Of a DNA stretch of 58,452 bases, positions 7,188-33,883 are shown piece after piece. Source of the DNA: a virus (lineage: Duplodnaviria > Caudoviricetes); the IMG/VR virus record IMGVR_UViG_3300024430_000001, positions 1 to 58,452 of that record. One strand, written 5' to 3'. The translations under genes and the position numbers were made by a program. The notes under the pieces were generated by a model. It saw only the letters and a list, made by a program, of their open reading frames with translations, made no database searches and had not been told where the DNA came from. How positions within the stretch are numbered: the first letter of the stretch is position 1; every line of letters starts with the position of its first letter.

Positions 7188-7189
7188 CC

Positions 7190-9244: not shown

Positions 9245-9315
9245 CGGGCGATACCTTTCACCGCAACGTTTCTCCGCCGTGCGGCGGACATCCTCACCGA
9301 TAGGGGGTGTGCCGC

Positions 9316-9672: not shown

Positions 9673-9681
9673 GGGGCGACT

Positions 9682-9954: not shown

Positions 9955-9957
9955 GAC

Positions 9958-10440: not shown

Positions 10441-10518
10441 TTCCTGAGCCGAGAGCACGGACCACCAGCCCGGTCCGTGCTCTCGCCCACTTCACGGGCT
10501 GGACTCGAAGGGCTGGAC

Positions 10519-11761: not shown

Positions 11762-11830
11762 TCCGGCACTGTATAGCTATCGGTCACTGCCCGGCGTCAT
11801 CCGATCATCCGACCGGGCCGGGGGTGAGCG

Positions 11831-14542: not shown

Positions 14543-17370
14543 GGTGCTGGGCCTGCTTGGTCGTAATCCTGCTGTGGGGGTTGGTGGCAGTCGTGCCGTA
14601 TGACCCCGCTGAGCCTCTGGTGTTCCGGGTCGAGCTGGAAATCGACGGCGTGATGGTGGATGTCACCGCGCGGGCCCGCGCGGTGGACAAGGTGCGACTG
14701 TCGGTGGGGCGGTCGCCGGGGGCGATCCAGCCGGAGACCTCAACGCTTGACGTGACGTTAGGCAATGCGGACGGCTGGCTGACCGAGGGTAATCCTCTGT
14801 CGCCATGGTACTCGCACATCGGCCGCGGCGTCCGCCTGCGACTGTCGGTGTTGGACATTCTGCCGGACCCGGCAGTGCTGTTCGACGGCCGGATCGTTTC
14901 GCTGGTCGCCGACTATCCGCAGGGTAGCGACTCGCGGATGCGGTTGACCGCGATCGGACTGTGGGGGCAAATCGGCCTAGGTGACGATCCGCTGCGGTCT
15001 GCCCTGTACCGATCCATGTCCGGCATCGCGCCAGGCGATTACATCCCACTCGAGTACTGGCCGATGGAAGACGGATCGGATGCCTCACGGTTTTCCAGCG
15101 CTCTTCCCGACGGCATGAGCGTCTTCCCGACCGGGGTGACGTTCGCGGCAGACAGCACACTGATAAGTTCCAGCCCCCTGCCCACGTTCAGCGCCACAGG
15201 CTCGGCTGCCTTCCCGGTCCGGGCCTACACCTTCACGGGCAGCTGGTGGGTGCAGGTGGCGCTGAAAATCCCCACAGCTCCCACGTTCCCGGCTGTACCG
15301 GGCACCGACACTGAGCTGATCGACGTGTTCACCACCGGAGGCGCTGTCGCCCGATGGCGCGTTTTCCTCAACACGTTCGATACAAGCCTTGCGGCACTTA
15401 AGGTCTGGGGCTACAACAGCGCCGGGGTGCTAATTGAGACCATGCAAGGAAGCCTGGGATCTGGGGGAACGCTCCCCGCGCCGTCCGAACTGTGGGGACA
15501 GTGGGCGATGCTCTCCTTGGGGGAAAACGACTATGGGCCGGCGGTCGGGGAACACAGCGTGTACGTCGGCTTGGCTACTGAGGCAACCCACAACATCATC
15601 GGCGGCCCAGACTTCGTCGGCCGCGGCGGCTCGATTTCCTCGGTGCGGGTCAACGGCAATCCCCGACTGCCCAGCTATGGGCACCTGGGCATATGGGTCG
15701 ATCCGGCATTTACCGACGAAGAGGCAGTGCACAACATCCTGGCGCTGAAAGCCTGGGATGGAGAGCAGGCACACGAGCGGGCGGAGCGGCTGTGTCGCGA
15801 GCAGGGCCTGGCCATCAGTATTACTGGCTCGACATCGACCCTGATGGGGCCACAGCGGCCCGCCACGCTGCCTGTACTGCTCGCCGAGTGCGAACTTGCC
15901 GATCAGGGGCTGGCGGGCGATGGCGGCATCGATGGTGCGCTCACCTATGTCACCCGTACCGCGCTTTACCGGCTGGAGCCGGAAGCCACCATCGCGGCGG
16001 TGTCCGGGGATGATCTGCCCACGACGTGGGACTACCGTCATGTGCGAAATCTCGTCGTTTCATCACGCCCTGGCGGTGGGAGCGCTACCGCCCAGGATGA
16101 CGAGCATATTGCCCGCACTGGTGCGACGCTGCGCGACACACCCATAGTGAACGTTGCGACCGACGATCAGCTGCCAGGCGACGCACAGTGGCGGCTCCAC
16201 AAGGGACTCGCACCCGAGCCACGCTACCCCGCAGTGCCGATCAATATGCGCAACCGGGCAGCGGCGGCCCAGGCTGAGCAGGTGCTCACCATCCGGCCCG
16301 GCGCGCGGCTGATGATCCCCGAGTCGGCGCTGCCCGGCACCCACCCCCCGGGCGGCATCGACGGGCTAATCGTGGGCTGGACCGCATCCATGGACGCACG
16401 CGAGTGGCTATGGAGACCCCACGTCGTGCCCTATTCGACGTATCGCGATATCGGAGTGTATGGCGCGGCATCTGCGGTCTCCCGGTACGACTCCGCGCAC
16501 TCCACGCTTGTGTCCGGAGTGGACGCCGATGACACCACGTTGCTGGTTCACGCCGCATTGGATCACGCGCTGTGGGTTACCGGCTCCAGCGCGCCGACGT
16601 TTCCGCTCGACGCGAGTTGTTCCGGCATTCGCTTGCCCGTGTCCGCGATTGCTTCTGCCGCAACGGACACTTTCACCCGGTCGGTCACCAACGGTTGGGG
16701 CACATCGGATTCTGGCCACGCATACGCCTTCACTGGCGGTACGATCCCAGACGACTACGACGTCAATGGGTCGGCCGGCACGATGACGCTGACCACGGCC
16801 AACGTCTCACGCCGGGCGGTACTCGACACCGGCTCGGCCAATCACTATCTCAGGGCGCGGGTCACCGTGCCGGTCCTGCCCACCGGCGCGGGCATCAATG
16901 TGAGCTTGGTGCTGCGATTCGCCGATATGTCCAATCACTACGTTGCTGGGTTGCGCATCGAGACCACGGGCGCCGTGACGCTGCTCGTGGAGCGCGTCGT
17001 CAGCGGGGTGTTCACCACGCTCACGTCGGCCACCATCGCCGGCTGGACGCACGTCGCTGGCGCGAGCTACCACCTGGCCGCCGAGATCTCGGGCACGACG
17101 CTGCGCGCCACCGCATGGAGACCGACGGACGCCGAGCCCGGATGGCGGTACACGACCACGGACAGCTCACTGTCTGGTCACACCTCGGCCGGGGTGCGCG
17201 CGAGCCGGGTCACCGGCAACACCAACACCGACCCGGTGATCAGCTGGGATGACCTGTCTGTCCCCAATCCGCAGCGGTTCACGGTGACCCGGCTCGCGGA
17301 TGGCATCGACAAGCCTCTGCCTGCCGGGGGACAGGTGCGGCTGTGGCGTCCCGACCGATACGCGCTGTGA
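14539..17370 (+). CDS. Large minor tail / baseplate protein with lectin-like (LamG-like) domains
   Basis: YWPMEDG motif, RAERLCREQG, DTFTRSVTNGWG domain, LPAGGQVRLWRP end; start uncertain (14539 ATG or 14584 GTG). Confidence 0.8.
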   Translation: MRCWACLVVILLWGLVAVVPYDPAEPLVFRVELEIDGVMVDVTARARAVDKVRLSVGRSPGAIQPETSTLDVTLGNADGWLTEGNPLSPWYSHIGRGVRLRLSVLDILPDPAVLFDGRIVSLVADYPQGSDSRMRLTAIGLWGQIGLGDDPLRSALYRSMSGIAPGDYIPLEYWPMEDGSDASRFSSALPDGMSVFPTGVTFAADSTLISSSPLPTFSATGSAAFPVRAYTFTGSWWVQVALKIPTAPTFPAVPGTDTELIDVFTTGGAVARWRVFLNTFDTSLAALKVWGYNSAGVLIETMQGSLGSGGTLPAPSELWGQWAMLSLGENDYGPAVGEHSVYVGLATEATHNIIGGPDFVGRGGSISSVRVNGNPRLPSYGHLGIWVDPAFTDEEAVHNILALKAWDGEQAHERAERLCREQGLAISITGSTSTLMGPQRPATLPVLLAECELADQGLAGDGGIDGALTYVTRTALYRLEPEATIAAVSGDDLPTTWDYRHVRNLVVSSRPGGGSATAQDDEHIARTGATLRDTPIVNVATDDQLPGDAQWRLHKGLAPEPRYPAVPINMRNRAAAAQAEQVLTIRPGARLMIPESALPGTHPPGGIDGLIVGWTASMDAREWLWRPHVVPYSTYRDIGVYGAASAVSRYDSAHSTLVSGVDADDTTLLVHAALDHALWVTGSSAPTFPLDASCSGIRLPVSAIASAATDTFTRSVTNGWGTSDSGHAYAFTGGTIPDDYDVNGSAGTMTLTTANVSRRAVLDTGSANHYLRARVTVPVLPTGAGINVSLVLRFADMSNHYVAGLRIETTGAVTLLVERVVSGVFTTLTSATIAGWTHVAGASYHLAAEISGTTLRATAWRPTDAEPGWRYTTTDSSLSGHTSAGVRASRVTGNTNTDPVISWDDLSVPNPQRFTVTRLADGIDKPLPAGGQVRLWRPDRYAL

Positions 17371-17380
17371 AAGGAATGCG

Positions 17381-17839
17381 ATGAGCACGGTGCCGACGGT
17401 GGCCGCAGGTCAGATCATCTTGGCCGACGACCACAACTCTCACCTTCTGGCCTGGACGGCGTACACCCCCACGTGGGCTTCTTCGGCAGGCAGTGTGGCG
17501 ATAGGCAACGGCACATTGTCCGGCCGGTACCGCAAGGTCGGTAAGACGGTGGATTTCGTCGTGGCACTCACGGCGGGCTCCACTACGACCTATGGCACGG
17601 CGGGGGCGTTCTGGTCGTTCGGGCTTCCGCCGATCGGTGTCCCGACAATGCCTTTCGTGTTCCCGCTGCGCATGATTGACACCCTGACTCTGGAGTATGA
17701 GGGATTCGCTATAGCGGCAGCTGGCGGCAGCACTGTCGAGCTATTCAAGCCCGTGTCCGGCCGCATCCTCAACAACTCGCCGTTCGCCTTTGGCAACACG
17801 GACGCTCTGTCTTTCAACGGCACCTACGAGATCTCTTAG
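17381..17839 (+). CDS. Minor tail / tail fibre protein
   Basis: WTAYTPTW...IGNGTLSGRYRKVGKTV...GTYE fibre-tip motif. Confidence 0.75.
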   Translation: MSTVPTVAAGQIILADDHNSHLLAWTAYTPTWASSAGSVAIGNGTLSGRYRKVGKTVDFVVALTAGSTTTYGTAGAFWSFGLPPIGVPTMPFVFPLRMIDTLTLEYEGFAIAAAGGSTVELFKPVSGRILNNSPFAFGNTDALSFNGTYEIS

Positions 17840-17846
17840 GAGAAAA

Positions 17847-18110
17847 ATGCCTTACGGCACAATGGAATTGATGAACGGCGGCGGCGCCGCCTACATTTTC
17901 GAAGCCCAGCGGGTGGTGGGCTCCGGGACGGTGGCCTTCAACTTCCGGATCTCCACGACCTACGGCTACGCGTCCGAGGCCGACTGGGACGACGTCATGC
18001 AGGAGGTCATGGACTACTTCGCTGCCAACTTCATCAACGTGGTGGGTCGCAAACAGCATCCTGGCAGCGGCGATGCGGGCGCCCAGGCCACTATCACCCC
18101 GACACCGTAG
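17847..18110 (+). CDS. Hypothetical protein (possible fibre chaperone)
   Basis: AGGAG RBS and ATG right after the fibre gene. Confidence 0.6.
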   Translation: MPYGTMELMNGGGAAYIFEAQRVVGSGTVAFNFRISTTYGYASEADWDDVMQEVMDYFAANFINVVGRKQHPGSGDAGAQATITPTP

Positions 18111-18143
18111 GGGCTTCCCCAACCCGCCTACCCGAGAGGAGGC

Positions 18144-19118
18144 GTGATGCGTCTGCTCTGGCTCGCTGACGTGCTCCGCGCCGCGGGACTCACTGTGCAC
18201 GAGGTGTCCGGCTGGAAAACTCGAGGCTCGGATACCTATGGTCCTGTCCGTGGCATCACCTGCCACGAAACGCAGGGCAGCCTGCGGTCCACGGATGCCG
18301 GTGAAATCGGCGTCCTGCTGAACGGGTCGGCGACCGCGAATCCGCCGATCGCGCAGCTGTACCTGTCCAGGTCCGGTGCGTGGCATGTGGTGGCGTCGGG
18401 CACCTGCTACCACAACAAAACCGGCTGGGCCGGCCCGAACAAGGGCTACGGCAACGATGCGCTGCTCGGTATCGAAGCCCAGCATGCCAAAGGCGAGCCG
18501 TGGACTGCGCTTCAGTACGAGTCGTATGTGCGCGGCGTGGCCGCGCTGGTCGCCCACAAGGCGTCTGGCTACGACGTGGCGGTGTCACGTGTCGGTGGCC
18601 ATTTCGAGCATCAGCCGGGCGAGAAGTCCGATCCCGGCTTCGACATGAACGTGTTCCGTCGGCGAGTGGCGGATGTCCTAAGTGGAGACGACATGGCTGT
18701 CAATCAGCAAGATTTCGACGCACTGATCTGGCGCCTCGAAGCGCTGATCAACAATCGGCCTACCGTGATAGGTGGCCCCCTCAAGGGCGAGAGGAACGTG
18801 CTGGCGGCCACTTTGGGTGATGTGCAGGCCCGTATCGCCGCCGAGCAGGCCCGCGATGCCGCGCTGTCGGCCACCGTCGAAGCGCTGGCCGAGATGGTCC
18901 GCCAGGGCGGCGGAGACGTGGACGCTGCGGCGATCCTGTCCCGCATCGACGACCGGGTGACCGAGGTCAAAGCGCAAATCACCGAGGTGCACCAAGACGA
19001 GATGGCCCGGCTCGCGGAGGTTATGCAGCAGGCGCTGCGGGACAGGGACGCCCGGATCGCCTCGCTGGAGACCGAGCTGGACGGGCTGCGCGGCGGCGAC
19101 GCGGCGCCGCAGGGGTAG
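18144..19118 (+). CDS. Endolysin, N-acetylmuramoyl-L-alanine amidase (Amidase_2)
   Basis: WLADVLRAAGL, CHET, GIEA, GHFEH...KSDPG zinc-amidase motifs; coiled-coil C-terminus. Confidence 0.9.
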   Translation: MMRLLWLADVLRAAGLTVHEVSGWKTRGSDTYGPVRGITCHETQGSLRSTDAGEIGVLLNGSATANPPIAQLYLSRSGAWHVVASGTCYHNKTGWAGPNKGYGNDALLGIEAQHAKGEPWTALQYESYVRGVAALVAHKASGYDVAVSRVGGHFEHQPGEKSDPGFDMNVFRRRVADVLSGDDMAVNQQDFDALIWRLEALINNRPTVIGGPLKGERNVLAATLGDVQARIAAEQARDAALSATVEALAEMVRQGGGDVDAAAILSRIDDRVTEVKAQITEVHQDEMARLAEVMQQALRDRDARIASLETELDGLRGGDAAPQG

Positions 19119-19122
19119 TGAC

Positions 19123-19386
19123 GTGTGGCCGGAGTTGGAGCCGTTCGCTGGCCCGGTCGGGATTGGCACGGTGGTTCTCGCTGCGATCTGGATGGTGCTG
19201 ACCGGCCGGCTCATCCCCGCCCGGACCCACGAGCGGGAGATCGCCGCGAAGCAGGCAGAGATCGACCGCCTGTCGGCGGCGCTGGAGAAGGTCGAAGCGC
19301 AGCGCGACAAGCTCATGGGTCTCGCGGGCGAGGTGACAGTCGGCATCGTCCGGGCCATTCCGTCGGCACGGGACTCGGTGCCATGA
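19123..19386 (+). CDS. Lysis-cassette membrane protein
   Basis: TM segment followed by LTGRLIP and coiled coil; directly after the lysin. Confidence 0.7.
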   Translation: MWPELEPFAGPVGIGTVVLAAIWMVLTGRLIPARTHEREIAAKQAEIDRLSAALEKVEAQRDKLMGLAGEVTVGIVRAIPSARDSVP

Positions 19387-19571
19387 GGTGGCCGTGGTCG
19401 CGCCGACGTAAGGCGGAGGAAGCAGAGGCGCTTCGGGCGGCACAGGAACGCCTGGATGACGCGAAGCGCAAGGACGCCGAGGTGAACTCGCTGGCTGACC
19501 AACTGCGGCAGATCCGAGACGCGAACCATTTCGCCGAGATGCTGGCGGCGAGTTTCAGGGACCGGAGATGA
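19383..19571 (+). CDS. Small lysis-cassette protein
   Basis: MRWPW... coiled coil ending NHFAE; ATGA overlap on both sides. Confidence 0.65.
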   Translation: MRWPWSRRRKAEEAEALRAAQERLDDAKRKDAEVNSLADQLRQIRDANHFAEMLAASFRDRR

Positions 19572-19852
19572 GGATCTTCTCAACCATGCTGCTGGCTATG
19601 GCCTTTCTGGGCGGGCTGACGTTCGTCGTCTTCTATGCGACGACGGCACGCTGGTGGCGATCGGACGTAGGCCGTAACGCGATGATTTTCGCCGGCTGCG
19701 AGACGATCATCTTGGGGTTGTCGCTGACGGTGCGGATATTCGGCGACTTCCCTGGTCGGGAGCTGGTTGCCATGACCATGTTTGCGCTATTCACGGTGGC
19801 GATCTGGTGGCGGGTGGTGGCGTTGATCCGCGCCCAGCGCCGAAAGGACTAG
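19568..19852 (+). CDS. Putative holin (3 TM)
   Basis: Three hydrophobic segments with a WWRS..GR motif. Confidence 0.65.
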   Translation: MRIFSTMLLAMAFLGGLTFVVFYATTARWWRSDVGRNAMIFAGCETIILGLSLTVRIFGDFPGRELVAMTMFALFTVAIWWRVVALIRAQRRKD

Positions 19853-20090
19853 CTTTCGCCGCCGCCATGCCTGACCTGGGGAGATCAAGGGGCGGGGGGG
19901 TGCCGACCGTGGCTGTGCACTGGCGTGTGGGTGCTGGCTATGCCTGTGGTGTCGGCTGCCGCTGGGAGTCGCAGACGGTCACCTCCACCCGTAGCCGGGC
20001 TGGGGTGACCTGCCGAGGGTGCATGCGCACCCGCGTGTGGGCGCAGGCCCATGACTGATTCTTTCCTTCAATCCCTCGAGGAGGGCCATT

Positions 20091-20593: not shown

Positions 20594-20625
20594 GCGCCCG
20601 TCCTCTTCGGAGGGCGGGCGCTTCT
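20594..20625. terminator. Hairpin terminator
   Basis: GCGCCCGTCCTC-TTCG-GAGGGCGGGCGC-TTCT. Confidence 0.75.
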
Positions 20626-20810
20626 GCGCGTTCCGGTGTTGTCACCTTAGCGATGTCACCCGGAGGTGAGAGAATTTCTTGGGCATGAAAACGGCCCGGT
20701 CGGCTGCCTGCCTACCCAGCGGCGGCCGTCCCGGACCGATGCCTTGGCTGACGAGCAGATTTAGGTGGCCTCGCCAGCTTCACCCCTCTACCGAAGGGAA
20801 CCCCACAACT

Positions 20811-21611
20811 ATGCACCAACTGAACCTTGTGGCCAACACTCTCGATCAACTTCGTTGTGAAGATGAGACCGGAGAGTGGTGGCTAGCCCGCTCCCTGATG
20901 CCCGTCATGGGCTACGTCAAGTGGGAGAACTTCGAGGAAGTGATCACGCGCGCCCGTGCGGCGGCGCGTAACTCCGGCCTCGACCCTGATCAGCATGCTT
21001 CCCGGCTCCAGGAAGTTGGGACGAAGTGGACACCGGGCGCAGGTGGTCGGGTTGACTACCGGCTCACCCGCTACGGCGCCTATCTGCTGGCAATGAACGG
21101 CGACCCGCGTAAGCCGGAGATCGCTGGGGCGCAGACCTACTTCGCGGTCAAGACCCGCGAGGCGGAGGCCGCGGCCCTGATCCCGTCTCCACGGCGGCCC
21201 CTCACCAACCGCGAGCTGGCCCTGATGGTCATCGAGGAAGCTGACCGGGCCGACCGGGCGGAGGCCGCGCTGGGGATCACCCAGCCGAAGGCGGAGGCAT
21301 ACGACGTCTTCCTCGACGCGGACGGCACCTACTCCTTTGAGCAGGTCGCCAAGATGCTGCATGCCGAGACCGGGCTGGGGCGCAACAATTTGATGAAGCG
21401 GCTGCGGGAACTCGGCGTGCTCGAGAAGAACAACGTCCCCTATCAGCGTCACCTCGAGCACTTCCACGTCGTCGCCCAGCACTTCGAGGGCGCAGACGGG
21501 CGACGCCGCGTCACCCACACCACCCGGGTCTATCCGTCCGGAGTGGACTTCATTCGACGCAAGGTGCTCGCCGGGCGCGGCATGCTGACCCCGGCTCTTA
21601 TGTCCCCCTAG
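20811..21611 (+). CDS. Antirepressor (DinD/Bro-like N-terminus plus KilA-C domain)
   Basis: WWLARSLMPVMGYVKWENF, LTRYGAYLLAMNGDPRKPEIA.AQTYFA, PKAEAYDVF, GRNNL..LR, PYQRH motifs. Confidence 0.9.
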   Translation: MHQLNLVANTLDQLRCEDETGEWWLARSLMPVMGYVKWENFEEVITRARAAARNSGLDPDQHASRLQEVGTKWTPGAGGRVDYRLTRYGAYLLAMNGDPRKPEIAGAQTYFAVKTREAEAAALIPSPRRPLTNRELALMVIEEADRADRAEAALGITQPKAEAYDVFLDADGTYSFEQVAKMLHAETGLGRNNLMKRLRELGVLEKNNVPYQRHLEHFHVVAQHFEGADGRRRVTHTTRVYPSGVDFIRRKVLAGRGMLTPALMSP

Positions 21612-21625
21612 GGCTCGGTCACCCT

Positions 21626-21657
21626 GCGCCCGCCCTCCGAAGAGGGCGGGCGCTTCT
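21626..21657. terminator. Hairpin terminator
   Basis: GCGCCCGCCCTC-CGAA-GAGGGCGGGCGC-TTCT. Confidence 0.75.
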
Positions 21658-21668
21658 GCTATTGCCCC

Positions 21669-21697
21669 TTGCGCTAATAAACGGCGTCGTTTATTCT
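21669..21697 (+). promoter_or_regulatory. Promoter with overlapping palindromic operator
   Basis: TTGCGC-N17-TATTCT, with AATAAACG-gcgt-CGTTTATT (21676-21695) covering the spacer and -10. Confidence 0.75.
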
Positions 21698-21744
21698 GGG
21701 TGTACGGCCGCAGGGAGTGGCCCGGACCCGAAGGAGCAGCCGCA

Positions 21745-22047
21745 ATGCCGATCACGACCACCATCTTTGGCCAGGACACCCGCCACGCCGAGCCGAGGCC
21801 CGAGATGAGGCCCGAGATCTCAGCCGAGTTTTACGCCGCGCTCGCCGCTGCCGGAGTCACGGCGGACGCAGAGATTGAGCCCGACGGCCAAATCACCATC
21901 GAGACCAACTGCACCCAGATATGCGTAGGTGCAGAGGACGGCTGGATCACCGCCACCGCACGGTACGCCGACGACACTGAGGCGATGATCTACGAGGGTG
22001 AGTCGCTGACCGACCTGGCGGCGGCGATCGCCCGGACGCTGCGGTGA
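21745..22047 (+). CDS. Small acidic hypothetical protein (candidate anti-defence effector)
   Basis: AAGGAG RBS, 100 aa, Asp/Glu-rich; first gene after the operator-bearing promoter. Confidence 0.7.
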   Translation: MPITTTIFGQDTRHAEPRPEMRPEISAEFYAALAAAGVTADAEIEPDGQITIETNCTQICVGAEDGWITATARYADDTEAMIYEGESLTDLAAAIARTLR

Positions 22048-22277
22048 GCCAGGCCGCACGCCGACCCGGCCGTCCGGGCCTGGGCGACCGGGTCGCAGTC
22101 CGCCTGGACCCCGAAGTCCGCGCCGGTCTCGCCCGGTGGGCTGAGGGCCGGCCGGACGTCGACCGCAGGCGCGGGCGACCGGTCGAGGCTGACGCCGTCC
22201 GGGTAATCGTCGAGGAGCGGCTGGCGGCTGAGGGCATCCTCCGGCCGGGGGACGCTACGAGCGCGTCGGAGTGCTAA
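22044..22277 (+). CDS. Ribbon-helix-helix DNA-binding protein
   Basis: GRPGLGDRVAVRLDP beta-ribbon followed by two helices; GTGA overlap with the upstream gene. Confidence 0.7.
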   Translation: MSQAARRPGRPGLGDRVAVRLDPEVRAGLARWAEGRPDVDRRRGRPVEADAVRVIVEERLAAEGILRPGDATSASEC

Positions 22278-22294
22278 CCTGGGACAGTTCGTTG

Positions 22295-22443
22295 TTCATT
22301 GAGGTTTGGTTGCGGGTGGCGCCCAGCGTCCCGGTAATCCCGTCGCGGGACTAACTGTCCCGCCCTTCATTGAGGAGTGGTCGTCTTCGACGTGCCAGCC
22401 TGAGCACGATGCTGCGGGGCTCGCCCCCGCCCTTCGCTGATAG
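22295..22443 (+). CRISPR. CRISPR-like mini-array 1 (type I-G-like repeats, 2 spacers)
   Basis: Partial repeat TTCATTGAGG (22295-22304); 37-nt spacer; full repeat GTC-GCGGGAC-TAACT-GTCCCGC-CCTTCATTGAGG (22342-22375); 35-nt spacer; degenerate repeat GCT-GCGGGG-CTCGC-CCCCGC-CCTTCGCTGATAG (22411-22443). Confidence 0.72.
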
Positions 22444-22479
22444 AAGCGCCCGCTTTCCCGTAGGAGAGCGGGCGCTTCT
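22442..22479. terminator. Bidirectional terminator
   Basis: AGAAGCGCCCGCTTTCC-CGTA-GGAGAGCGGGCGCTTCT between convergent transcription units. Confidence 0.8.
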
Positions 22480-22505
22480 GCTCATTGCGAGATGGGGGTT
22501 GCGGT

Positions 22506-22811
22506 CTAGCCTCGCTGCCGGATGCCGCGCTCGGCCAGCAGGTGGCGGTTGCGGACGCCAGTCTTGGACATGCCGAGGCGGGCGGCGATCTGGCGGTAGG
22601 ACCAGCCGAGGCCGCGCAATCGCAGGATCTCCGTATCGGGGATGTCGACGCGTCCCCGTGGCCCGCGTCGACGGGTGGGCACTTTGCCGTGGATGGCTTT
22701 CCAGAGGGTCTTGCTGTGGCGGATGCCGAGTTCGTCGATGATCTCGCGCAGGGTGCGGCCCTTGCGGTAGAGCCGCACCGCTTGTGTGGTCTGTCGGGCT
22801 GTGAGCGGCAT
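22506..22811 (-). CDS. Double helix-turn-helix protein
   Basis: GRTLREIIDELGI and GWSYRQIAARLGMSKTGVRN HTH motifs. Confidence 0.75.
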   Translation of the reverse strand: MPLTARQTTQAVRLYRKGRTLREIIDELGIRHSKTLWKAIHGKVPTRRRGPRGRVDIPDTEILRLRGLGWSYRQIAARLGMSKTGVRNRHLLAERGIRQRG

Positions 22812-22837
22812 GCATCGATGCTATGCCGCAATGAGGA

Positions 22838-23149
22838 TCAGGCGCGGCAGGGCTCGCGGTATTTGTTGAGGTCGGACCCTTTGAGGACGACGATGGTGTC
22901 GATCTCGGTGCAGTCGTCGTCGCCCTCGGCGTAGTCCCGCGCGATAGCCTGCGCGGCCGCGCGCTCGTCGAGGTAGCCGCCTCCGGCGAAGTTGGCCGAC
23001 TGGTACTGGGTGCTGTCCCAGCGGTCCGGGTCGTAGCTGTCGTTGATCGACCAGTTGCACGACACGCCGACCTCGGGTCGGGTGGGGTCGAAGGCCATCA
23101 GGAATGCCTGGTCGTCGGTGAGGGTGACGCGGTAGATGTTGCGGCTCAT
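22838..23149 (-). CDS. Small acidic hypothetical protein
   Basis: AGGAG RBS, 103 aa, Asp-rich; divergent from the RHH gene at 23242. Confidence 0.72.
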   Translation of the reverse strand: MSRNIYRVTLTDDQAFLMAFDPTRPEVGVSCNWSINDSYDPDRWDSTQYQSANFAGGGYLDERAAAQAIARDYAEGDDDCTEIDTIVVLKGSDLNKYREPCRA

Positions 23150-23183
23150 GGCTTCTCCTGGGTGAGGGGTGGCGCTTCAACGG

Positions 23184-23239
23184 AATAAATGTACCACACT
23201 TAAAGACGACTTGGCAAGAATAGGTGTGGTACATTTATT
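23184..23239. promoter_or_regulatory. 16-bp perfect inverted-repeat operator in a divergent promoter region
   Basis: AATAAATGTACCACAC (23184-23199) N24 GTGTGGTACATTTATT (23224-23239). Confidence 0.8.
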
Positions 23240-23241
23240 GC

Positions 23242-23460
23242 GTGAGCGAGGAGAAGAAGCGCAGAGGAAGACCCGCCACCGGCGTGACCCCCAAGCGCAA
23301 CCTGCGAGTCGGCCCGGTCTGGGATGAGGCAGCCGCGATCGCCGAGGCGCGCGGCGAAACCATCACCGACGTGGCCCGGCCCATCCTGGAACGCGGCTTG
23401 CGCCGCTACATCCGGCAGCACGGGCAGGAGGGGGTTGGCGACCAATCGGCGACGGGGTAG
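23242..23460 (+). CDS. Ribbon-helix-helix DNA-binding protein
   Basis: RGRPATGVTPKRNLRV..VWDEA...GETITDV...L.RYI motif; probably leaderless GTG start. Confidence 0.8.
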   Translation: MSEEKKRRGRPATGVTPKRNLRVGPVWDEAAAIAEARGETITDVARPILERGLRRYIRQHGQEGVGDQSATG

Positions 23461-23461
23461 T

Positions 23462-23557
23462 GTGACGGCACTGGTTCGCCAGTCCTCATTGCGATCTGAT
23501 CGCACCGCACGTCCGTGAGACGGGTGGTTCCCGGCCGAGGCCGGGCCTCTTTGCGAT
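23462..23557 (+). CRISPR. CRISPR-like mini-array 2 (two divergent hairpin repeats, one short spacer)
   Basis: GTGACGGC-ACTGG-TTCG-CCAGT-CCTCATTGCGAT (23462-23495); 28-nt spacer; GTGGTT-CCCGGC-CGAG-GCCGGG-CCTCTTTGCGAT (23524-23557); both units 34 nt. Confidence 0.62.
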
Positions 23558-23559
23558 TT

Positions 23560-23598
23560 GCGCCCCACCCGGCACGTAGCCGGGTGGGGCGCTCTTTC
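23560..23598 (+). terminator. Hairpin terminator after mini-array 2
   Basis: GCGCCCCACCCGGC-ACGTA-GCCGGGTGGGGCGC-TCTTTC. Confidence 0.8.
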
Positions 23599-23835
23599 GT
23601 ATCCGGTCCTGGTCTGCCAGGCTCGCCGGTATGCCGTCTCCATCCGATCCGCGTCCCGCTGATCCTGTCGCACCTCCCGCCGAGGCGGTGTGCTGTGGCC
23701 GGGGGTCGTGGGCGCCGAAAGCCGGGGCTCCGCTGGTGGTGGGATGCCAGCTGTGCAAGCTCTCGCCGACGTACTGGCGCAAACAGTCCGCCCCCGCCGC
23801 CTCGGAGTGAGGCAGGCGGGGGCGGTTCTGTCGTG

Positions 23836-24120
23836 TCAGTCGGCGGCGGCGCGCTCGACCGTGGCGTACATACCGGTGTCGCCGAACTCCCAGTCTTCAG
23901 TGCGCGACCAGCCCTGCTCAGACAGGATTCGGTCTGCCGCTTCGCCAGCCGCTTCGGTGCCGTCCCGTCCAGGCACGCCGGTGTCGGCGTCGCCCATCGC
24001 CATCTCGCCCGTCATGTCCTGCCCTGTGCCGGACAGGTCGTCGGCCATCTCGTAGACGCCGACTTCGTAGGTCGCATCGGGGGCGATCTCGGTCAATATG
24101 GCTGCCTGGTGCATTTTCAT
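23836..24120 (-). CDS. Very acidic small hypothetical protein
   Basis: GAGGA RBS, 94 aa, Asp/Glu-rich; flanked by hairpins. Confidence 0.7.
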   Translation of the reverse strand: MKMHQAAILTEIAPDATYEVGVYEMADDLSGTGQDMTGEMAMGDADTGVPGRDGTEAAGEAADRILSEQGWSRTEDWEFGDTGMYATVERAAAD

Positions 24121-24191
24121 GGTCGGGTTCCTCTCGCGTTTGGGTGCGCCCCGTCCGGCTGTTGCGAGCCGGACGGGGCGATTTTGTCATG

Positions 24192-24695
24192 TCAGCCGAT
24201 CGGGTTCGGCATCCACTTCATGCCCCACCACTCGTGGTGGTCGTCGGGGATGACGGTGCTGATGCCGTGCTGGCCGGGCATGTCCTGCCAGCCGTCGGCG
24301 AGCATGAGCTTTCGAGGGTGCTCGTACACCCACGATTCCGCCATCACGCCGAGTCTGGTGATGAGGGGCTGTGTCGTGTCGTGGACCAGCTCGTAGACGT
24401 CGGTGCCGATGTCGTCAAGCCGGTAGCCGCGGCGGACGTAGGCGTTACGCACCAGGATCACCACGCGAAGGCCGCCGATCTCGCCGTCCCAGCGGAGGGT
24501 GGGGCGCAGGAGACGCCATGCAGCCGGTGTGCCGTCGACGGTCGCGATGACCATCCAGTCGCCGGGACGGTCGTCGAGCCGGCTTTCAGCGTCACGCAGC
24601 ATGTCGTAGGCGAGACCGATGTCATCGCGTAGGGGGTCGACGAGTGCCCGGTAGCGGGGGTCGCCGTACTCCAGCGTCAGGGCTTCGATCTTCAA
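24192..24695 (-). CDS. Hypothetical protein, possible GNAT-fold acetyltransferase
   Basis: GGGAG RBS plus TTG; NAYVRRGYR...IGT resembles acetyl-CoA motif A. Confidence 0.5.
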   Translation of the reverse strand: MKIEALTLEYGDPRYRALVDPLRDDIGLAYDMLRDAESRLDDRPGDWMVIATVDGTPAAWRLLRPTLRWDGEIGGLRVVILVRNAYVRRGYRLDDIGTDVYELVHDTTQPLITRLGVMAESWVYEHPRKLMLADGWQDMPGQHGISTVIPDDHHEWWGMKWMPNPIG

Positions 24696-29495: not shown

Positions 29496-29510
29496 CCCCC
29501 CTCAATGACT

Positions 29511-29540
29511 AAAGCCCCCGCCGAGTGCGGGGGCTTTTTT
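29511..29540. terminator. Intrinsic terminator
   Basis: AAAGCCCCCGC-CGAGT-GCGGGGGC-TTTTTT. Confidence 0.88.
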
Positions 29541-32869: not shown

Positions 32870-33883
32870 TTATATTCCGCCCATCACGTCGACGCGATCG
32901 TAAGCCCTTCGTGCCCGCGCAGACCGCGCCGATCGACCATAGCGGCGCAGCATTTGAGGCGAATCCCACCCATTCAGCTCCATAAGATCACCTTCCGCGC
33001 CGCCAGCATCCAGCCAGCGGTGCGTGAAGGTATGGCGAAATTGATGAGGGTAGATTTTTAAGCCGATGCGCTTGCCCCGGCTTTCGATGGCTTGATAGAC
33101 GCCGCTCGGTGTGAGGGGACCTTTGGTGCCGAGCCACAGCCGGGAGGTGAACCGACCCGCCCTGTGGGTCGCTCTGGAACGCAGGTATCGGTCAAGGGCC
33201 TGGGCGCATTTGGCATCGAATTTGATGATGCGCTGCTTGCCGGCTTTTCCGGTGACCAGGAGTTCGAAGTTCCTCAAGTTCAAGTCATCTACTTCCAGGA
33301 CGGCCACCTCGGCGAGACGAGCTCCGCTGCACGCGTAGAGCCGTATCAGCGCAGCGTCGCGGCGGGACGAGAAATCTCGTCCCTTCTCGCAATCCTGGAC
33401 GAGGCGGGCAAGATCTTCACTTGCGATGACCGGCACGACTTTGTCGTCAATCGAGGGCGGCGACATCGACGCCAACGGGCTGGTCGTTTCCTCCTCGGCC
33501 GCATACCATTTCCAAAACTGTTGCAAGGCCCGATATTGATTGTTGGCATAGCCTTTTTCGTACGGACGCCCCTTCGGGCAGGGGGTCCGGGGATGACTGC
33601 GCGGCTTGCCACATCCGCAGCGCGTGCCACCTTCTTGAAACCAGGCCATGTAGAGCTCAAGGTGGCGTTTGCTGACGCTCGCCCAGTCGGCCACGTCTTG
33701 ATCGATAAGCCACCATGCGAGCTTCGCTGCGGCATCGGTGTAGGTGCGGCGCGTCTTGGGACTACGTCCCTTGGCGCGGAGCGAAAGCTCGAAGGATTCG
33801 ATCCATACCTGAAAGCTGGGGGGAAGATCTTCGTCAGGTCTCATATCTAGGCGGATCCTCTCTGACCGGTGTGCGATGGACAT
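32870..33883 (-). CDS. int: Tyrosine integrase
   Basis: RDAALIRL...GARLAE, GKAGKQR, HQFRHT, GW..PQM..RY catalytic residues. Confidence 0.95.
   Translation of the reverse strand: MSIAHRSERIRLDMRPDEDLPPSFQVWIESFELSLRAKGRSPKTRRTYTDAAAKLAWWLIDQDVADWASVSKRHLELYMAWFQEGGTRCGCGKPRSHPRTPCPKGRPYEKGYANNQYRALQQFWKWYAAEEETTSPLASMSPPSIDDKVVPVIASEDLARLVQDCEKGRDFSSRRDAALIRLYACSGARLAEVAVLEVDDLNLRNFELLVTGKAGKQRIIKFDAKCAQALDRYLRSRATHRAGRFTSRLWLGTKGPLTPSGVYQAIESRGKRIGLKIYPHQFRHTFTHRWLDAGGAEGDLMELNGWDSPQMLRRYGRSARSARARRAYDRVDVMGGI

What the first reader, a model, noticed from the sequence alone, without database searches (positions are those of the whole stretch)
21669..23598. Candidate new system: paired cassettes of acidic protein + RHH regulator + CRISPR-like mini-array + terminator, in a phage with no cas genes
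Seen in sequence: the same layout occurs twice within 2 kb. Each copy has an AT-rich promoter with a palindromic operator (21676-21695; 23184-23239), a ~100-aa acidic protein (21745-22047 co-directional; 22838-23149 divergent) and a small RHH gene (22044-22277; 23242-23460). Within 1-17 nt of the RHH stop comes a hairpin-repeat/spacer unit, closed by a GCGCCC...GGGCGC terminator. Established: acr-aca operons pair small acidic inhibitors with autoregulatory DNA-binding proteins, and phages can carry crRNA mimics (Racr) or mini-arrays that use host Cas proteins. Inference: this is a combined RNA/protein module against, or hijacking, host type I-G CRISPR-Cas, carrying two different repeat families so it could engage two I-G variants. 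I know of no description of this RHH-linked layout, but I could not search the literature.
Basis: partly seen in the sequence, partly recalled or inferred. Interest (0 to 1): 0.92.

Follow-up and report, generated by a model that had tools for sequence, protein, structure and literature searches.

The report
Phage-borne type I-G CRISPR mini-arrays
A soil phage that has no CRISPR genes of its own carries, right behind two small regulator genes, short imitations of the CRISPR arrays of actinomycete bacteria, most likely RNAs that hijack or blunt the host's CRISPR immunity, which is a known phage trick seen here for a CRISPR subtype with no described inhibitors.

Summary
The layout is real at the stated coordinates. 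Cassette 1 (21669-22479) is promoter and operator, acidic 100-aa protein, small basic DNA-binding protein, then a three-unit, two-spacer mini-array and a terminator.

The central unit (22342-22376) is a full-length type I-G CRISPR repeat. It scores 33.3 bits, E=2.6e-7, against a model of 45 host repeats. The best score in 711 kb of other phage DNA is 16.7 bits. Host arrays with this tail lie beside Cas3g, Cas4g/Cas1g and Csb2.

Cassette 2's two hairpin-plus-tail units (23462-23558) are a non-random pair. Their tail resembles a second natural I-G tail. Neither model scores them significantly.

The RHH link is not conserved: 0 of 11 loci with RHH2 homologues carry such a repeat. Two other phage contigs do carry the same partial-plus-full I-G repeat layout.

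I found no targets, host or processed RNA. The best reading is an anti-I-G island of the known Racr / Cracr / acr-aca kind, so a new member, not a new system. This scan has noted RHH-linked CRISPR-derived RNAs in other phages before.

The parts
21626..21653 (+). GC-rich hairpin that ends the upstream antirepressor (Ant) gene. It belongs to a 3-copy terminator-like family.
   Evidence: family D1, copies at 20594, 21626 and 22448; inverted repeat I1. The Ant gene is assigned by Pfam ANT and Bro-N.
21669..21697 (+). Cassette 1 promoter (-35 TTGCGC, 17-nt spacer, -10 TATTCT) with a perfect 8+4+8 palindromic operator at 21676-21695.
   Evidence: Read. The consensus scan did not list it as a promoter, so this is my own reading.
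21745..22047 (+). Acidic 100-aa protein (pI 4.11) and candidate inhibitor. It belongs to a small family of proteins of about 100 aa.
   Evidence: (GC3 0.83). Relatives P0006-P0011, and P0012, which is a Phd/YefM fusion. No Pfam or PHROG family. Model pLDDT 80.5 with no significant PDB match.
22044..22277 (+). Basic 77-aa protein (pI 9.9), probably a ribbon-helix-helix autoregulator (RHH1). Its start overlaps the stop of the acidic gene.
   Evidence: (phrog_4738, E=0.024). The fold is not confirmed.
22291..22305 (+). Unit A1: a truncated I-G repeat, tail only. It supplies an 8-nt handle-like ATTGAGGT at 22298-22305. A possible TGC-TAACCT extended -10 lies at 22272-22280.
   Evidence: 13.5 bits, E=0.11, stem deleted. 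The -10 is my reading and is also in note e1-6341495.
22306..22341 (+). Spacer 1, 36 nt.
   Evidence: Its length equals the median of 1388 host spacers. No target found.
22342..22376 (+). Unit A2: a full-length (35 nt) type I-G CRISPR repeat with a GTCGC start, a 7-bp stem, a 5-nt loop and a CCTTCATTGAGG tail.
   Evidence: 33.3 bits, E=2.6e-7, model positions 1-36. Control. Weak Rfam CRISPR-DR20 match (16.2 bits, E=7.6).
22377..22410 (+). Spacer 2, 34 nt.
   Evidence: No target found.
22411..22443 (+). Unit A3: a degenerate third repeat. It has a different perfect 6-bp stem and keeps CCTTC, but its handle has decayed to GCTGATAG.
   Evidence: (D19: a 15-nt match of 22359-22373 with 22426-22440). 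Model R1 did not list it at E<=10.
22442..22479 (.). A 17-bp hairpin, probably a two-way terminator between cassette 1 and the convergent HTH gene. It is followed by GCTC and then ATTGCGAG (22480-22491).
   Evidence: I10; fold.
22506..22811 (-). Basic 101-aa protein with two HTH motifs, downstream of the acidic gene in the same minus-strand operon (an Aca-like position).
   Evidence: HTH_23 E=1.4e-7; Sigma70_r4_2 E=2.6e-6; pI 12.
22825..22836 (-). Orphan CCTCATTGCGGC between the acidic gene and the HTH gene. Its last 8 nt equal the handle of natural CATTGCGGC-type I-G repeats.
   Evidence: Natural repeats. R2 gives 8.2 bits, E=6.9, which is not significant.
22838..23149 (-). Acidic 103-aa protein (pI 4.22). 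It is an orphan and a candidate inhibitor.
   Evidence: GC3 0.94; no relatives, no lead.
23180..23243 (.). Divergent promoter region with 23-nt inverted arms that hold GTACCAC and GTGGTAC. Each arm holds a TACATT -10.
   Evidence: I4; minus-strand promoter TTGCCA-18-TACATT with TG. The operator words are kept upstream of 9 of 11 homologues.
23242..23460 (+). RHH2: a leaderless 72-aa Arc-like repressor.
   Evidence: phrog_6506, E=9.4e-7. 11 homologous viral loci.
23462..23496 (+). Unit B1: starts GTG, has a 5-bp stem and TTCG loop, then CCTC and then ATTGCGAT.
   Evidence: Neither repeat model listed it at E<=10.
23497..23523 (+). Short spacer-like stretch of 27-28 nt.
   Evidence: Only 0.9% of 1388 host spacers are 28 nt or shorter. 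No target found in the window or in held loci.
23524..23558 (+). Unit B2: starts GTG, has a 6-7-bp stem CCCGGCC/GGCCGGG, then CCTC and then TTTGCGAT.
   Evidence: It is 26/35 identical to the I-G repeat of locus L191, with the same stem (this equals the best score of 200 shuffles). R2 gives 8.8 bits, E=4.8.
23560..23592 (+). A 14-bp GC hairpin followed by TCTTTCG: the intrinsic terminator of cassette 2.
   Evidence: (I25).

Best explanation
This is an anti-defence island of a temperate soil actinomycete phage, aimed at the host's type I-G CRISPR-Cas system. It combines small proteins with CRISPR-repeat-derived RNAs.

Shown:
- Cassette 1 holds a genuine I-G repeat, flanked by a truncated repeat and a decayed repeat, with two spacers of natural length (36 and 34 nt).
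- The phage record itself holds none of the three I-G cas families that I searched for (Cas4g/Cas1g, Cas3g, Csb2).

Inferred mechanism:
- The RNA is made either as the 3' part of the operator-controlled transcript of the acidic gene and RHH1, or from its own extended -10 at 22272-22280.
- The host Csb2 (the Cas5-Cas6 fusion) binds the hairpins of A2 and A3. It cuts a few bases 3' of each stem. This leaves 8-nt handles (ATTGAGGN) and 67-71-nt crRNA-like RNAs.
- Host Cas7 and Cas8g assemble on these RNAs. That draws Cas proteins away from host crRNAs and puts the complex under phage-chosen guides.

My odds for what the guides then do:
- About 45%: suppress immunity in the manner of Racr decoys or Cracr regulators, for instance by silencing cas or a guard gene.
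- About 25%: attack competing elements.

Cassette 2's two divergent pseudo-repeats around a 27-28-nt spacer fit the regulatory crRNA-like format. They may serve a second I-G tail variant (ATTGCGG-type). That step is the least secure.

The two acidic proteins are candidate protein inhibitors. RHH1, RHH2 and the HTH protein are the Aca-like repressors that shut the cassettes off through the palindromes over their -10 boxes.
For: 1. A2 matches a covariance model of 45 distinct host repeats over its whole length (33.3 bits, E=2.6e-7).
   - The tail alone gives 13.5 bits (A1), so about 20 bits come from parts that I did not use to fetch the training set.
   - Genuine arrays score 29-35 bits.
   - 711 kb of other phage loci give at most 16.7 bits.
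   - The model helix covaries: 7 of 8 pairs change on both sides, 89% of cells are paired, and 0 of 500 shuffles reach this.
2. Arrays with this tail are type I-G.
   - Cas3g is over its cut-off in L127, and Cas4g/Cas1g is over its cut-off in L191. Cas4g/Cas1g is the best hit in L176 (3 of 5 loci tested).
   - Csb2 is present in 5 of 5 genomes tested.
3. The spacers of 36 and 34 nt sit at the centre of 1388 host spacer lengths (median 36, 5th-95th percentile 34-40).
4. A2 and A3 have different stems, but both are perfect. That suggests selection on the RNA fold.
5. The format agrees with I-G biochemistry: a 36-nt repeat, a 7-bp stem, a cut 4 nt 3' of the stem, an 8-nt handle, a 72-nt crRNA, and tight binding of Csb2 to the hairpin (PMC9638904, passages).
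6. The same layout of a partial plus a full I-G repeat occurs in two other high-GC viral contigs. L225 and L232 score 18.4 and 30.4 bits, with the units 68 nt apart.
7. The context is typical of anti-defence loci.
   - There are two small acidic ORFan-like proteins.
   - Each is paired with small DNA-binding proteins and palindromes over the -10.
   - RHH2 homologues keep the operator but sit beside unrelated small divergent genes.
8. Known precedents:
   - acr and racr in one operon (PMC10651486).
   - Viral crRNA-like arrays with two or three spacers beside acr genes (10.1101/2024.10.29.618823).
   - The RHH-type Aca14 (10.64898/2026.07.27.740549).
9. Cassette 2:
   - The pair is non-random.
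   - Natural I-G repeats ending in CATTGCGG(C/G) exist beside Cas4g/Cas1g and Csb2.
Against: - The host is unknown. None of the 45 sampled host repeats is more than 26/35 identical to A2, so recognition by any real Csb2 is an assumption.
- No target was found for any spacer. Cultured phages, plasmids, and the window plus 2.4 Mb of held loci all gave nothing.
- None of 1388 host I-G spacers matches the phage better than 22 nt with 2 mismatches.
- A1 has no proper hairpin, so the 5' end of the first RNA is unexplained.
- B1 and B2 are not significant against either model. R1 lists nothing at E<=10. R2 gives 8.8 bits, E=4.8 for B2 and nothing for B1, but R2 scores even A2 at only E=1.4.
- The B tail pair was found in 0 of 401 Actinomycetota genomes.
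- The B stems (5 and 6-7 bp) are shorter than natural stems.
- The acidic proteins have no similarity to any known inhibitor.
- Acidic1 relatives include a Phd/YefM fusion. That could point to a toxin-antitoxin-like role instead.
- The RHH linkage is not conserved.
- The record is estimated 67% complete, so cas genes in a missing part cannot be excluded.
Confidence: 0.6

Rival explanations
1. The cassette-1 mini-array makes true guide RNAs. They arm the host's I-G system against competing phages or plasmids (superinfection exclusion or interviral conflict). They do not act against the immune system.
For: - Both spacers have the full natural length.
- The handle and hairpin of the unit that matters (A2) are intact.
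- Viral mini-arrays whose spacers target other viruses are a described class. I know this only as described in 10.1101/2023.03.03.530964 (section 'Mini-arrays in viral genomes', passages) and in PMC10651486 (introduction).
- The phage is temperate, with a tyrosine integrase at 32870-33883, so a lysogen would profit.
Against: - No protospacer was found in 50,697 phage records, in 72,556 plasmid records or in the held viral loci.
- The three repeats differ strongly from each other. The SRUFinder rule in PMC10651486 calls a unit a mini-array only at 90% or more identity between repeats.
- The array sits in an acr-aca-like context.
- L225 and L232 carry one identical spacer in two different prophage contexts. 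That fits a conserved host target better than fast-changing viral targets.
Confidence: 0.25
2. Only cassette 1 is CRISPR-derived. The cassette-2 units are 3'-UTR hairpins of the RHH2 mRNA, acting as stabilisers, attenuators or sites for an RNA- or DNA-binding protein. Their CCTC(A/T)TTGCGAT tail is a local motif of this phage and not a Cas handle.
For: - Neither model scores them significantly.
- No Rfam CRISPR-DR match falls on them at E<=10.
- The tail pair is in 0 of 401 Actinomycetota genomes.
- The metagenome scan found only unrelated GTCATTGCGAG repeat elements.
- The motif also follows the 22442-22479 terminator and lies on the minus strand at 22825-22836. It could therefore be a protein-binding word of this region.
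- The stems and the spacer are shorter than natural.
Against: - The format is that of I-G repeats. Each unit is 35 nt, starts GTG, and has a stem, exactly 4 nt, and then an 8-nt ATTG-type word. This matches the repeats anchored by cas genes and the Csb2 cut site.
- The 8-nt handle of natural CATTGCGGC repeats recurs exactly at 22825-22836.
- The B2 stem equals that of the I-G repeat of L191.
- Divergent pseudo-repeats around a short spacer are what regulatory crRNA-like RNAs look like (10.1101/2023.03.03.530964 and 10.1101/2024.10.29.618823, passages).
Confidence: 0.4
3. The repeat units are decaying remnants of a host array fragment that the phage once picked up. Today they have no CRISPR-related function. 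The hairpins merely terminate transcription, and the gene pairs are ordinary regulatory or toxin-antitoxin-like modules.
For: - A1 is truncated and A3 has a decayed handle.
- No targets were found.
- An acidic1 relative is fused to a Phd/YefM antitoxin domain.
- The best structural neighbour of acidic1 is an immunity-factor fold, at a non-significant E of 0.27.
- Similar GC hairpins end neighbouring genes (family D1).
Against: - A fragment of a host array would start with identical repeats. Here A2 and A3 have different stems that are each perfectly paired. Random decay would not give that.
- A truncated first repeat plus an intact second repeat recurs independently in L225 and L232.
- The spacer lengths are preserved exactly.
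Confidence: 0.12

Closest known systems
Racr RNA anti-CRISPRs / viral solitary repeat units (Camara-Wilpert et al. 2023, PMC10651486; I saw passages only)
   Same: - A repeat of the host's CRISPR type is carried by a phage that has no matching cas genes.
- It lies in an intergenic region, directly behind a small gene of an acr-like operon. In that paper a I-C racr lies 11 nt after an acrIC5 homologue, on one transcript.
- racr candidates are enriched next to predicted acr genes.
   Different: - Here there is not a solitary repeat but three units with two full-length spacers, plus a second pair.
- The subtype is I-G. The main text of that paper does not mention I-G (0 occurrences).
- No inhibition has been tested here.
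Cracr arrays: viral crRNA-like regulatory RNAs (Liu et al., bioRxiv 10.1101/2024.10.29.618823; I saw the abstract, outline and passages)
   Same: - Degenerate pseudo-repeats around spacer-like stretches.
- Two- and three-spacer arrays on phages and prophages.
- Often found beside acr genes.
- Shorter spacers give smaller complexes, which fits cassette 2.
   Different: - Cracrs were defined by similarity to host CreA/CreR elements and by spacers that match cas or creT promoters.
- Here no host element and no target is known.
- The types listed there are V-A, I-F, I-E, I-C and I-B, with no I-G in the main text.
Virus-borne mini-CRISPR arrays for interviral conflict (known to me only as described in 10.1101/2023.03.03.530964 and PMC10651486, passages, and from the listing of PMC7099407)
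   Same: - One or two spacers between host-type repeats.
- No cas genes on the virus.
   Different: - Those spacers match related viruses. Here none was found.
- Here the repeats differ strongly from one another.
acr-aca operons, including the RHH-type Aca14 (bioRxiv 10.64898/2026.07.27.740549; I saw passages only)
   Same: - A small protein gene followed by, or divergent from, a small repressor gene.
- An inverted repeat lies over the -10.
- One regulator family sits next to changing cargo.
- An RHH regulator takes the place of the usual HTH.
   Different: - I could not test homology of RHH1 or RHH2 to Aca14, because no Aca14 sequence was at hand.
- No known acr gene is present.
- An RNA array in the 3' part of the regulator's transcript is not mentioned in the passages that I read.
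Host type I-G CRISPR arrays of Actinomycetota
   Same: - A2 shares their length, GTCGC start, stem position, tail and period.
   Different: - Only three units are present, each with its own stem.
- There are no adjacent cas genes and no leader.
- The units lie on a phage.

Membership tests
Type I-G CRISPR repeat (cassette 1, unit A2) | Sequence and structure fit to repeats of arrays that lie beside I-G cas genes: about 36 nt, a 7-8-bp stem, and an ATTG-type 8-nt handle. | tested here: met
   33.3 bits, E=2.6e-7 over model positions 1-36. The arrays are beside Cas3g, Cas4g/Cas1g and Csb2. Control DNA gives at most 16.7 bits. Caveat: the training repeats were fetched with the window's own 10-nt tail.
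Type I-G CRISPR repeat (cassette 1, units A1 and A3) | The same fit as for A2. | tested here: inconclusive
   A1 matches in the tail only (13.5 bits, E=0.11). A3 is not listed at E<=10. Both stand at natural spacing from A2 (71 and 67 nt).
Type I-G CRISPR repeat (cassette 2, units B1 and B2) | The same fit, to either the TTCATTGAGG or the CATTGCGG tail variant. | tested here: inconclusive
   R1 lists nothing at E<=10. R2, built from 8 repeats of which 7 were anchored by cas genes, gives B2 8.8 bits, E=4.8 and lists no B1. R2 has no discriminating power, since it scores A2 at only E=1.4. The format (stem, 4 nt, 8-nt ATTG word) agrees by eye.
CRISPR-Cas locus | cas genes next to the array. | tested here: not met
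   0 matches to Cas4g/Cas1g, Cas3g and Csb2 in the 58,452-nt record. The record is estimated 67% complete. Other cas families were not searched.
Viral mini-CRISPR array (interference type) | The repeats are near-identical to each other (the SRUFinder rule in PMC10651486 asks for at least 90%). | tested here: not met
   A1, A2 and A3 share only the tail and a few stem bases.
Viral mini-CRISPR array (interference type) | The spacers match other viruses or plasmids. | tested here: not met
   No match covers 80% or more of either spacer in the phage or plasmid collections or in held loci. Large metagenomic virus sets were not searched with mismatches allowed.
Racr / solitary repeat unit | A single repeat that closely matches the repeat of the host's own array. 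| not testable with these tools
   The host is unknown. The best of the 45 sampled repeats is 26/35 identical. The unit is not solitary.
Cracr / regulatory crRNA-like RNA | Pseudo-repeats flank a spacer that is partly complementary to a promoter of cas genes or of a guard toxin in the host. | not testable with these tools
   The pseudo-repeat and short-spacer format is met for cassette 2. The target test needs the host's I-G locus. In held I-G loci I saw only 12-nt matches of chance level.
acr-aca operon | A small gene co-transcribed with a small DNA-binding regulator, with an inverted repeat in the promoter. | tested here: met
   Acidic1 with RHH1 and the palindrome at 21676-21695. Acidic2 with the HTH protein, behind the 23180-23243 operator. 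This is architecture only.
acr-aca operon | Homology to a known Acr or Aca family, or shown inhibition of a CRISPR-Cas system. | not tested
   No Acr or Aca library was at hand. Pfam and PHROGs (acidic proteins and regulators), the protein atlas (both acidic proteins) and Foldseek (acidic1 only) gave no link. Inhibition is an experiment.
Ribbon-helix-helix (Arc/MetJ/CopG) repressors | A profile match or a strand-helix-helix fold. | tested here: met
   This row is for RHH2: phrog_6506 Arc-like repressor, E=9.4e-7. The palindromic operator is conserved in 9 of 11 homologue loci.
Ribbon-helix-helix (Arc/MetJ/CopG) repressors | The same test, applied to RHH1. | tested here: inconclusive
   phrog_4738 at E=0.024 over 25 residues. 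No Pfam match and no PDB match. The model has two helices after an extended N-terminus at pLDDT 63.

The most novel reading that the evidence does not exclude
The region is the first anti-CRISPR locus against type I-G systems, and it works at two levels.
- Two autoregulated cassettes each end in a crRNA-like array carried in the 3' part of the regulator's own transcript.
- One array is tuned to the ATTGAGG-handle variant of actinomycete I-G systems and the other to the ATTGCGG-handle variant. One phage could then disarm or reprogram hosts with either variant.
- The two unrelated acidic proteins would be the first protein inhibitors of I-G (Csb2, Cas7, Cas8g or Cas3g).
- The repressor and the RNA would be made from one message, so autoregulation would also dose the decoy.
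Probability: 0.3. Interest if true: 0.7.

Novelty: new member of a known kind. Interest (0 to 1): 0.5.

Why it matters
- Type I-G is the least studied type I system (PMC9638904, abstract). It is common in soil and host-associated actinomycetes: Cas4g/Cas1g was over its cut-off in 12 of 251 sampled Actinomycetota genomes.
- My searches found no named inhibitor of it. The 'AcrIG' hits were a company name. 'I-G' has 0 occurrences in the main texts of the four RNA-anti-CRISPR, mini-array and Aca papers that I opened.
- This locus gives a short, concrete list to test: two RNAs and two acidic proteins, each with its own switch.
- It also shows that I-G repeats come in at least two handle variants, and that a phage may carry imitations of both.
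- If the RNAs or proteins work, they would be off-switches or compact guide formats for the I-G genome-engineering tools now being built (PMC10482374, listing only).

Tried and rejected
Relatives of the phage
- Megablast of 1-20000 against cultured phages found nothing.
- Megablast of 20600-24200 found only 80-nt Ant matches to mycobacteriophages.
- 80 Ant-anchored viral loci share nothing downstream with the window.

Relatives of the proteins
- Acidic1 and acidic2 have none in viral contigs.
- The word-indexed search found only the proteins themselves.
- RHH1 has none in viral contigs.
I therefore could not see the contexts of P0002 or of P0006-P0012.

Rfam
- The only gathering-level hit in the window is the tRNA.
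- At E<=10 the region gives only noise. This includes CRISPR-DR20 on A2 (E=7.6) and CRISPR-DR9 on the 21626 hairpin.

The B tail as a host array
- It was found in 0 of 401 genomes.
- The one hit among five array genomes is a 77-nt tandem repeat, not a CRISPR array.
It was swamped by an unrelated, widespread GTCATTGCGAG repeat element, so it says nothing either way.

Models
- R2 proved too weak to judge anything.

Host
- None of 1388 I-G spacers from held arrays targets the window. The output was far too long, and I filtered it.
- The genome search gives no names for genomes reached this way, so I could not name a host.

Expression
- The runs that hold the stretch are soil metagenomes.
- One RNA library has identical contigs over 21881-22285, 22360-22803 and 23131-23430.
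- Contigs show no ends, strand or level, and DNA can be present in such a library. The uncovered parts prove nothing. I draw no conclusion on transcription.

Structure
- The acidic1 model (pLDDT 80.5) has no PDB match at E<=0.001. Its best TM neighbour is a mycobacterial immunity factor (TMq 0.50, E=0.27). I treat this as a lead only.
- The protein atlas gave no lead.

Ideas rejected
- The TTGCGA inside the tails as a -35 box: no usable -10 follows at 16-18 nt for B1 or B2 (read).
- An attP site in the region: the integrase lies 10 kb away.
- The 3007-aa hit P0005 as a relative of acidic1: it is a cadherin-like repeat protein.

Full report
**What the window is.** The window is one IMG/VR virus record of 58,452 nt. 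It is linear, and CheckV estimates it 67% complete. Its G+C content is 67%.
- Gene order is that of a temperate siphovirus-like actinophage. The large ORFs of 100-17800 I take, by position alone, for packaging and structural genes; they were not searched. They are followed by an amidase at 18144-19118.
- After the amidase comes a central block with an Ant/Bro antirepressor (20679-21611).
- The same block holds an HTH_17 protein, a GntR regulator and a tyrosine integrase (32870-33883).
- A tRNA-Met lies at 57247.
- It has no close relative among 50,697 cultured phage records.
- Near-identical pieces occur in several soil metagenome runs.

The genes are supported by GC3 values of 0.83-0.94. On the plus strand, in order:
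- the hairpin that ends ant (21626-21653);
- a promoter with a perfect palindrome at 21676-21695 between its -35 and across its -10;
- an acidic 100-aa protein (pI 4.11);
- an overlapping basic 77-aa protein (pI 9.9), here RHH1;
- an untranslated stretch, 22278-22505.

On the minus strand, a second acidic protein (22838-23149, pI 4.22) is followed by a double-HTH protein (22506-811).

These two genes diverge from a 64-bp region with 23-nt inverted arms (I4).
- Each arm carries a TACATT -10. One was found by the scan. The other lies 6 nt before the GTG of a leaderless 72-aa Arc-like repressor, RHH2 (phrog_6506, E=9.4e-7).
- RHH2 is followed at once by a second untranslated stretch and a strong terminator (23560-23592).

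RHH1's fold is only probable.

**Cassette 1 carries a real type I-G repeat.**
- The 10-nt word TTCATTGAGG occurs twice, 71 nt apart (D16).
Many of them are long arrays in Nocardia, Micromonospora, Actinoplanes, Salinispora, Rothia, Actinomyces, Bifidobacterium, Corynebacterium and others.
- The consensus of these arrays is a 36-nt repeat: three bases (often GTC), an 8-bp stem, a 4-nt loop, then C(C/T)TTCATTGAGG(C).
- From the 120 loci I took the 47 distinct repeats that had at least 3 identical copies. I dropped two that were not of this form by eye (L137, L162) and aligned the remaining 45.
- The helix covaries strongly. 7 of 8 pairs change on both sides, the covariation score is 0.80 against 0.19 in shuffles, and slid partners give at most 0.23.
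- Model R1 built from them, run without filters over the whole window, gives 22342-22376 a score of 33.3 bits, E=2.6e-7, over all 36 model positions.
- The next hit is the tail-only match at 22291-22305 (13.5 bits).
- The training set was fetched with the window's own tail, so the tail match is circular. The tail is worth about 13.5 bits, and the remaining 20 bits or so come from the start, the stem position and the loop.
- As controls, genuine arrays on held loci score 29-35 bits. 95 other viral loci (711 kb, both strands) give nothing above 16.7 bits.
- The arrays are type I-G.
  - Of ten ORFs from five array loci, L127 has Cas3g (426 bits, cut-off 400) and a Cas2 domain.
  - L191 has Cas4g/Cas1g (699.5 bits, cut-off 560).
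  - L176 has the same family as its best hit (477 bits).
  - The ORFs tested in L116 and L107 had no cas match.
  - Csb2 was found in 5 of 5 array genomes tested.

**Anatomy of array 1.**
- A1 keeps only the tail. Its 5' part overlaps the stop codon of RHH1.
- Spacer 1 is 36 nt and A2 is complete. Spacer 2 is 34 nt.
- A3 (22411-22443) has another perfect stem and the CCTTC that follows it, but a decayed handle.
- Its last 2 nt lie in a 17-bp hairpin (22442-22479) that also ends the convergent HTH gene.
- Among 1388 spacers in held arrays the median length is 36 and the 5th-95th percentile range is 34-40.
- Published I-G biochemistry fits this layout: a 36-nt repeat, a 7-bp stem, a Csb2 cut 4 nt 3' of the stem, an 8-nt handle, a 72-nt crRNA, a TTN PAM, and Csb2 staying on the hairpin (PMC9638904, passages).
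- Cuts after 22368 and after 22435 would release a 67-nt RNA with handle ATTGAGGA, spacer 2 and the A3 hairpin. With a 5' end at 22298 they would also release a 71-nt RNA with spacer 1.
- How that first 5' end would form is open, since A1 has no proper hairpin. A TGC-TAACCT extended -10 at 22272-22280 could start transcription a few bases upstream.

**Cassette 2.**
- B1 (23462-23496) and B2 (23524-23558) are both 35 nt and both start GTG.
- Each has a hairpin (5 bp with a TTCG loop; 6-7 bp), then CCTC, then ATTGCGAT or TTTGCGAT. They flank 27-28 nt.
- The 12-nt tails are the only two matches in the window with at most 1 mismatch.
- The pair passes a test against 40 shuffles that I defined after seeing it.
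- R1 does not list them, but R1 has an invariant tail by construction.
- I therefore collected I-G repeats without using any tail.
  - Cas4g/Cas1g is over its cut-off in 12 of 251 sampled Actinomycetota genomes.
  - 7 of those 12 loci gave a full 36-nt repeat next to the gene.
  - Their tails are CATTGAAGC (1 locus), AATTGAAGC (2), CGTTGAAGC (1) and CATTGCGG(C/G) (3).
  - All have exactly 4 nt between the stem and an 8-nt ATTG-type word.
- A pattern search found long arrays of the CATTGCGG kind in four published genomes of 401: G165, G351, G135 and G182. Three of them have Cas4g/Cas1g and Csb2 beside the array.
- So a second natural I-G handle, ATTGCGGC, exists.
  - B1's ATTGCGAT differs from it at positions 7 and 8 of the 8; position 8 varies among natural repeats.
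  - The same 8 nt occur exactly on the minus strand at 22825-22836.
  - A further ATTGCGAG stands 4 nt after the 22442-22479 hairpin.
- Model R2, built from these eight repeats, has no power, however. It gives A2 only 10.9 bits (E=1.4), B2 8.8 bits (E=4.8), the orphan 8.2 bits (E=6.9) and no B1. Its top hit is an unrelated site.
- The exact B tail pair was found in 0 of 401 genomes.
- The metagenome scan was swamped by another repeat element.
- Membership of B1 and B2 in the I-G family is therefore plausible by format but unproven.

**Is the RHH link a rule?** It is not.
- Eleven viral loci encode RHH2 homologues at 47-69% identity.
- 9 of the 11 keep GTACCAC and GTGGTAC upstream.
- Their divergent neighbours are small and mutually unrelated. 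None is related to acidic2.
- Their downstream DNA is unrelated to the window, and none has an R1 hit.
- RHH1 has a single relative (73% identity) on a 336-nt contig.
- By contrast, phage-borne I-G units recur without RHH.
  - Of 15 viral stretches with the tail pair, L225 and L232 carry a partial unit (18.4 bits) plus a full unit (30.4 bits) 68 nt apart.
  - The spacer is identical in the two, although one lies next to a tRNA and the other near lysis genes.
  - L224 has three identical repeats beside phage structural genes.
  - L231 looks like a fragment of a host array.
  - The other 11 are chance pairs or other repeats.

**Targets, host and expression.**
- No protospacer was found in cultured phages, in plasmids, or in the window and all held loci.
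- No held I-G spacer targets the phage.
- The host could not be named.
- I-G systems are reported in Mycobacteriaceae, Nocardia, Rhodococcus and Corynebacterium (PMC10333696, passages).
- The RNA-library contigs say nothing about RNA ends.

**Proteins.**
- Acidic2 is an orphan.
- Acidic1 has seven distant relatives in 1.8 billion representatives. Five are of about 100 aa at 37-46% identity. Two are longer (P0009, P0012) and match at 50% over their C-terminal parts; P0012 carries an N-terminal Phd/YefM domain.
- Its model is a confident alpha/beta fold without a significant PDB neighbour.
- Nothing links either protein to a known inhibitor, and nothing excludes such a link.

**Literature.**
- Known in print:
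  - Viral solitary repeats act as RNA anti-CRISPRs, cluster with acr genes, and can share a transcript with them (PMC10651486).
  - Host and prophage regulatory mini-arrays exist (10.1101/2023.03.03.530964).
  - Viral Cracr arrays have two or three spacers and work together with Acr proteins (10.1101/2024.10.29.618823).
  - An RHH-type Aca has an inverted repeat over the -10 and reaches into neighbouring operons (10.64898/2026.07.27.740549).
- 'I-G' occurs 0 times in each of these four main texts.
- My searches for an I-G anti-CRISPR found none. The 'AcrIG' word hits were a company name.
- Supplements were closed, so I-G units may be listed there.
- This scan's earlier notes describe RHH-linked solitary or dual CRISPR-derived RNAs after the lysis genes of other phages. 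I did not check those notes.

**Verdict.**
- What is there is best read as an anti-I-G island of a known kind: repeat-derived RNAs beside autoregulated small-protein cassettes.
- The claim of a new RHH-defined system is not supported.
- Cassette 1 is solid as a I-G mini-array (about 95%). That it acts on host I-G proteins I rate at about 70%.
- Whether it suppresses immunity or redirects it is open (about 45% against 25%).
- Cassette 2 as a I-G pseudo-repeat RNA I rate at about 50-60%.
- It is a good new member for an understudied subtype and gives testable candidates. It is not a new principle.

Noticed in passing
window 29499-29536 (-): After three small minus-strand genes (30070-29566) there is a classic terminator hairpin. 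It is followed by TTTAG and then TCATTGAGGGG. R1 aligns it over the full model length, but at only 9.7 bits, E=1.3. It is either a possible third, solitary I-G-like unit or chance.
   Followed up: partly
window 20594-20635, 21626-21667, 22448-22489: There are three copies of a GC hairpin plus a TTCTGC... tail (D1). The copy at 22448 is followed, 4 nt after its stem, by ATTGCGAG, which is the spacing and word type of I-G repeats. R1 touches the other two copies at E=0.73 and E=3.7. Whether these terminators descend from repeats is unexplained.
   Followed up: partly
L225:1040-1400 and L232 (minus strand, same module): The I-G partial-plus-full unit is enclosed by a 16-nt inverted repeat. It is followed by two palindromic units of about 29 nt, 61 nt apart, that remind me (from recall only) of type I-E repeats. 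Rfam gave no CRISPR hit at E<=1. The identical module sits in two different prophage contexts.
   Followed up: partly
L224:21-199: Three identical I-G repeats (34.8 bits each) with two spacers lie at the end of a 7.3-kb viral contig, directly before portal- or capsid-like genes. This is either a phage-borne array or an assembly join.
   Followed up: no
L004-L013, upstream of the RHH2 homologues: This is an Arc-like repressor family with a conserved GTACCAC / GTGGTAC operator (9 of 11 loci). Its members are mostly leaderless and are always next to a different small, often acidic, divergent gene. The pattern is that of an anchor regulator with changing cargo.
   Followed up: partly
P0012 (relative of window 21745-22047): The acidic1 domain occurs fused behind a Phd/YefM antitoxin domain. 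The best structural neighbour of acidic1 is a mycobacterial toxin-immunity factor, at a non-significant E. An inhibitor-like role is possible.
   Followed up: partly
metagenome loci L237-L315: A widespread short repeat element built on GTCATTGCGAG(G/C), often with its inverted copy nearby, occurs in contigs of 31-73% G+C. It is unrelated to the finding.
   Followed up: no
L219/L220 (G004:C49:394476-394639): There is a tandem repeat of 77 nt in the genome that holds locus L159 (titled Actinoplanes regularis). It contains CTCATTGCGA and is not a CRISPR array.
   Followed up: no
window 22281-22361: GGGACAGTT at 22281-22289 is complementary to AACTGTCCC inside the A2 hairpin (22353-22361). The minimum-free-energy fold of the whole stretch uses other pairings. 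This could be an alternative fold that masks the repeat in read-through transcripts, as in note e1-6341497.
   Followed up: no
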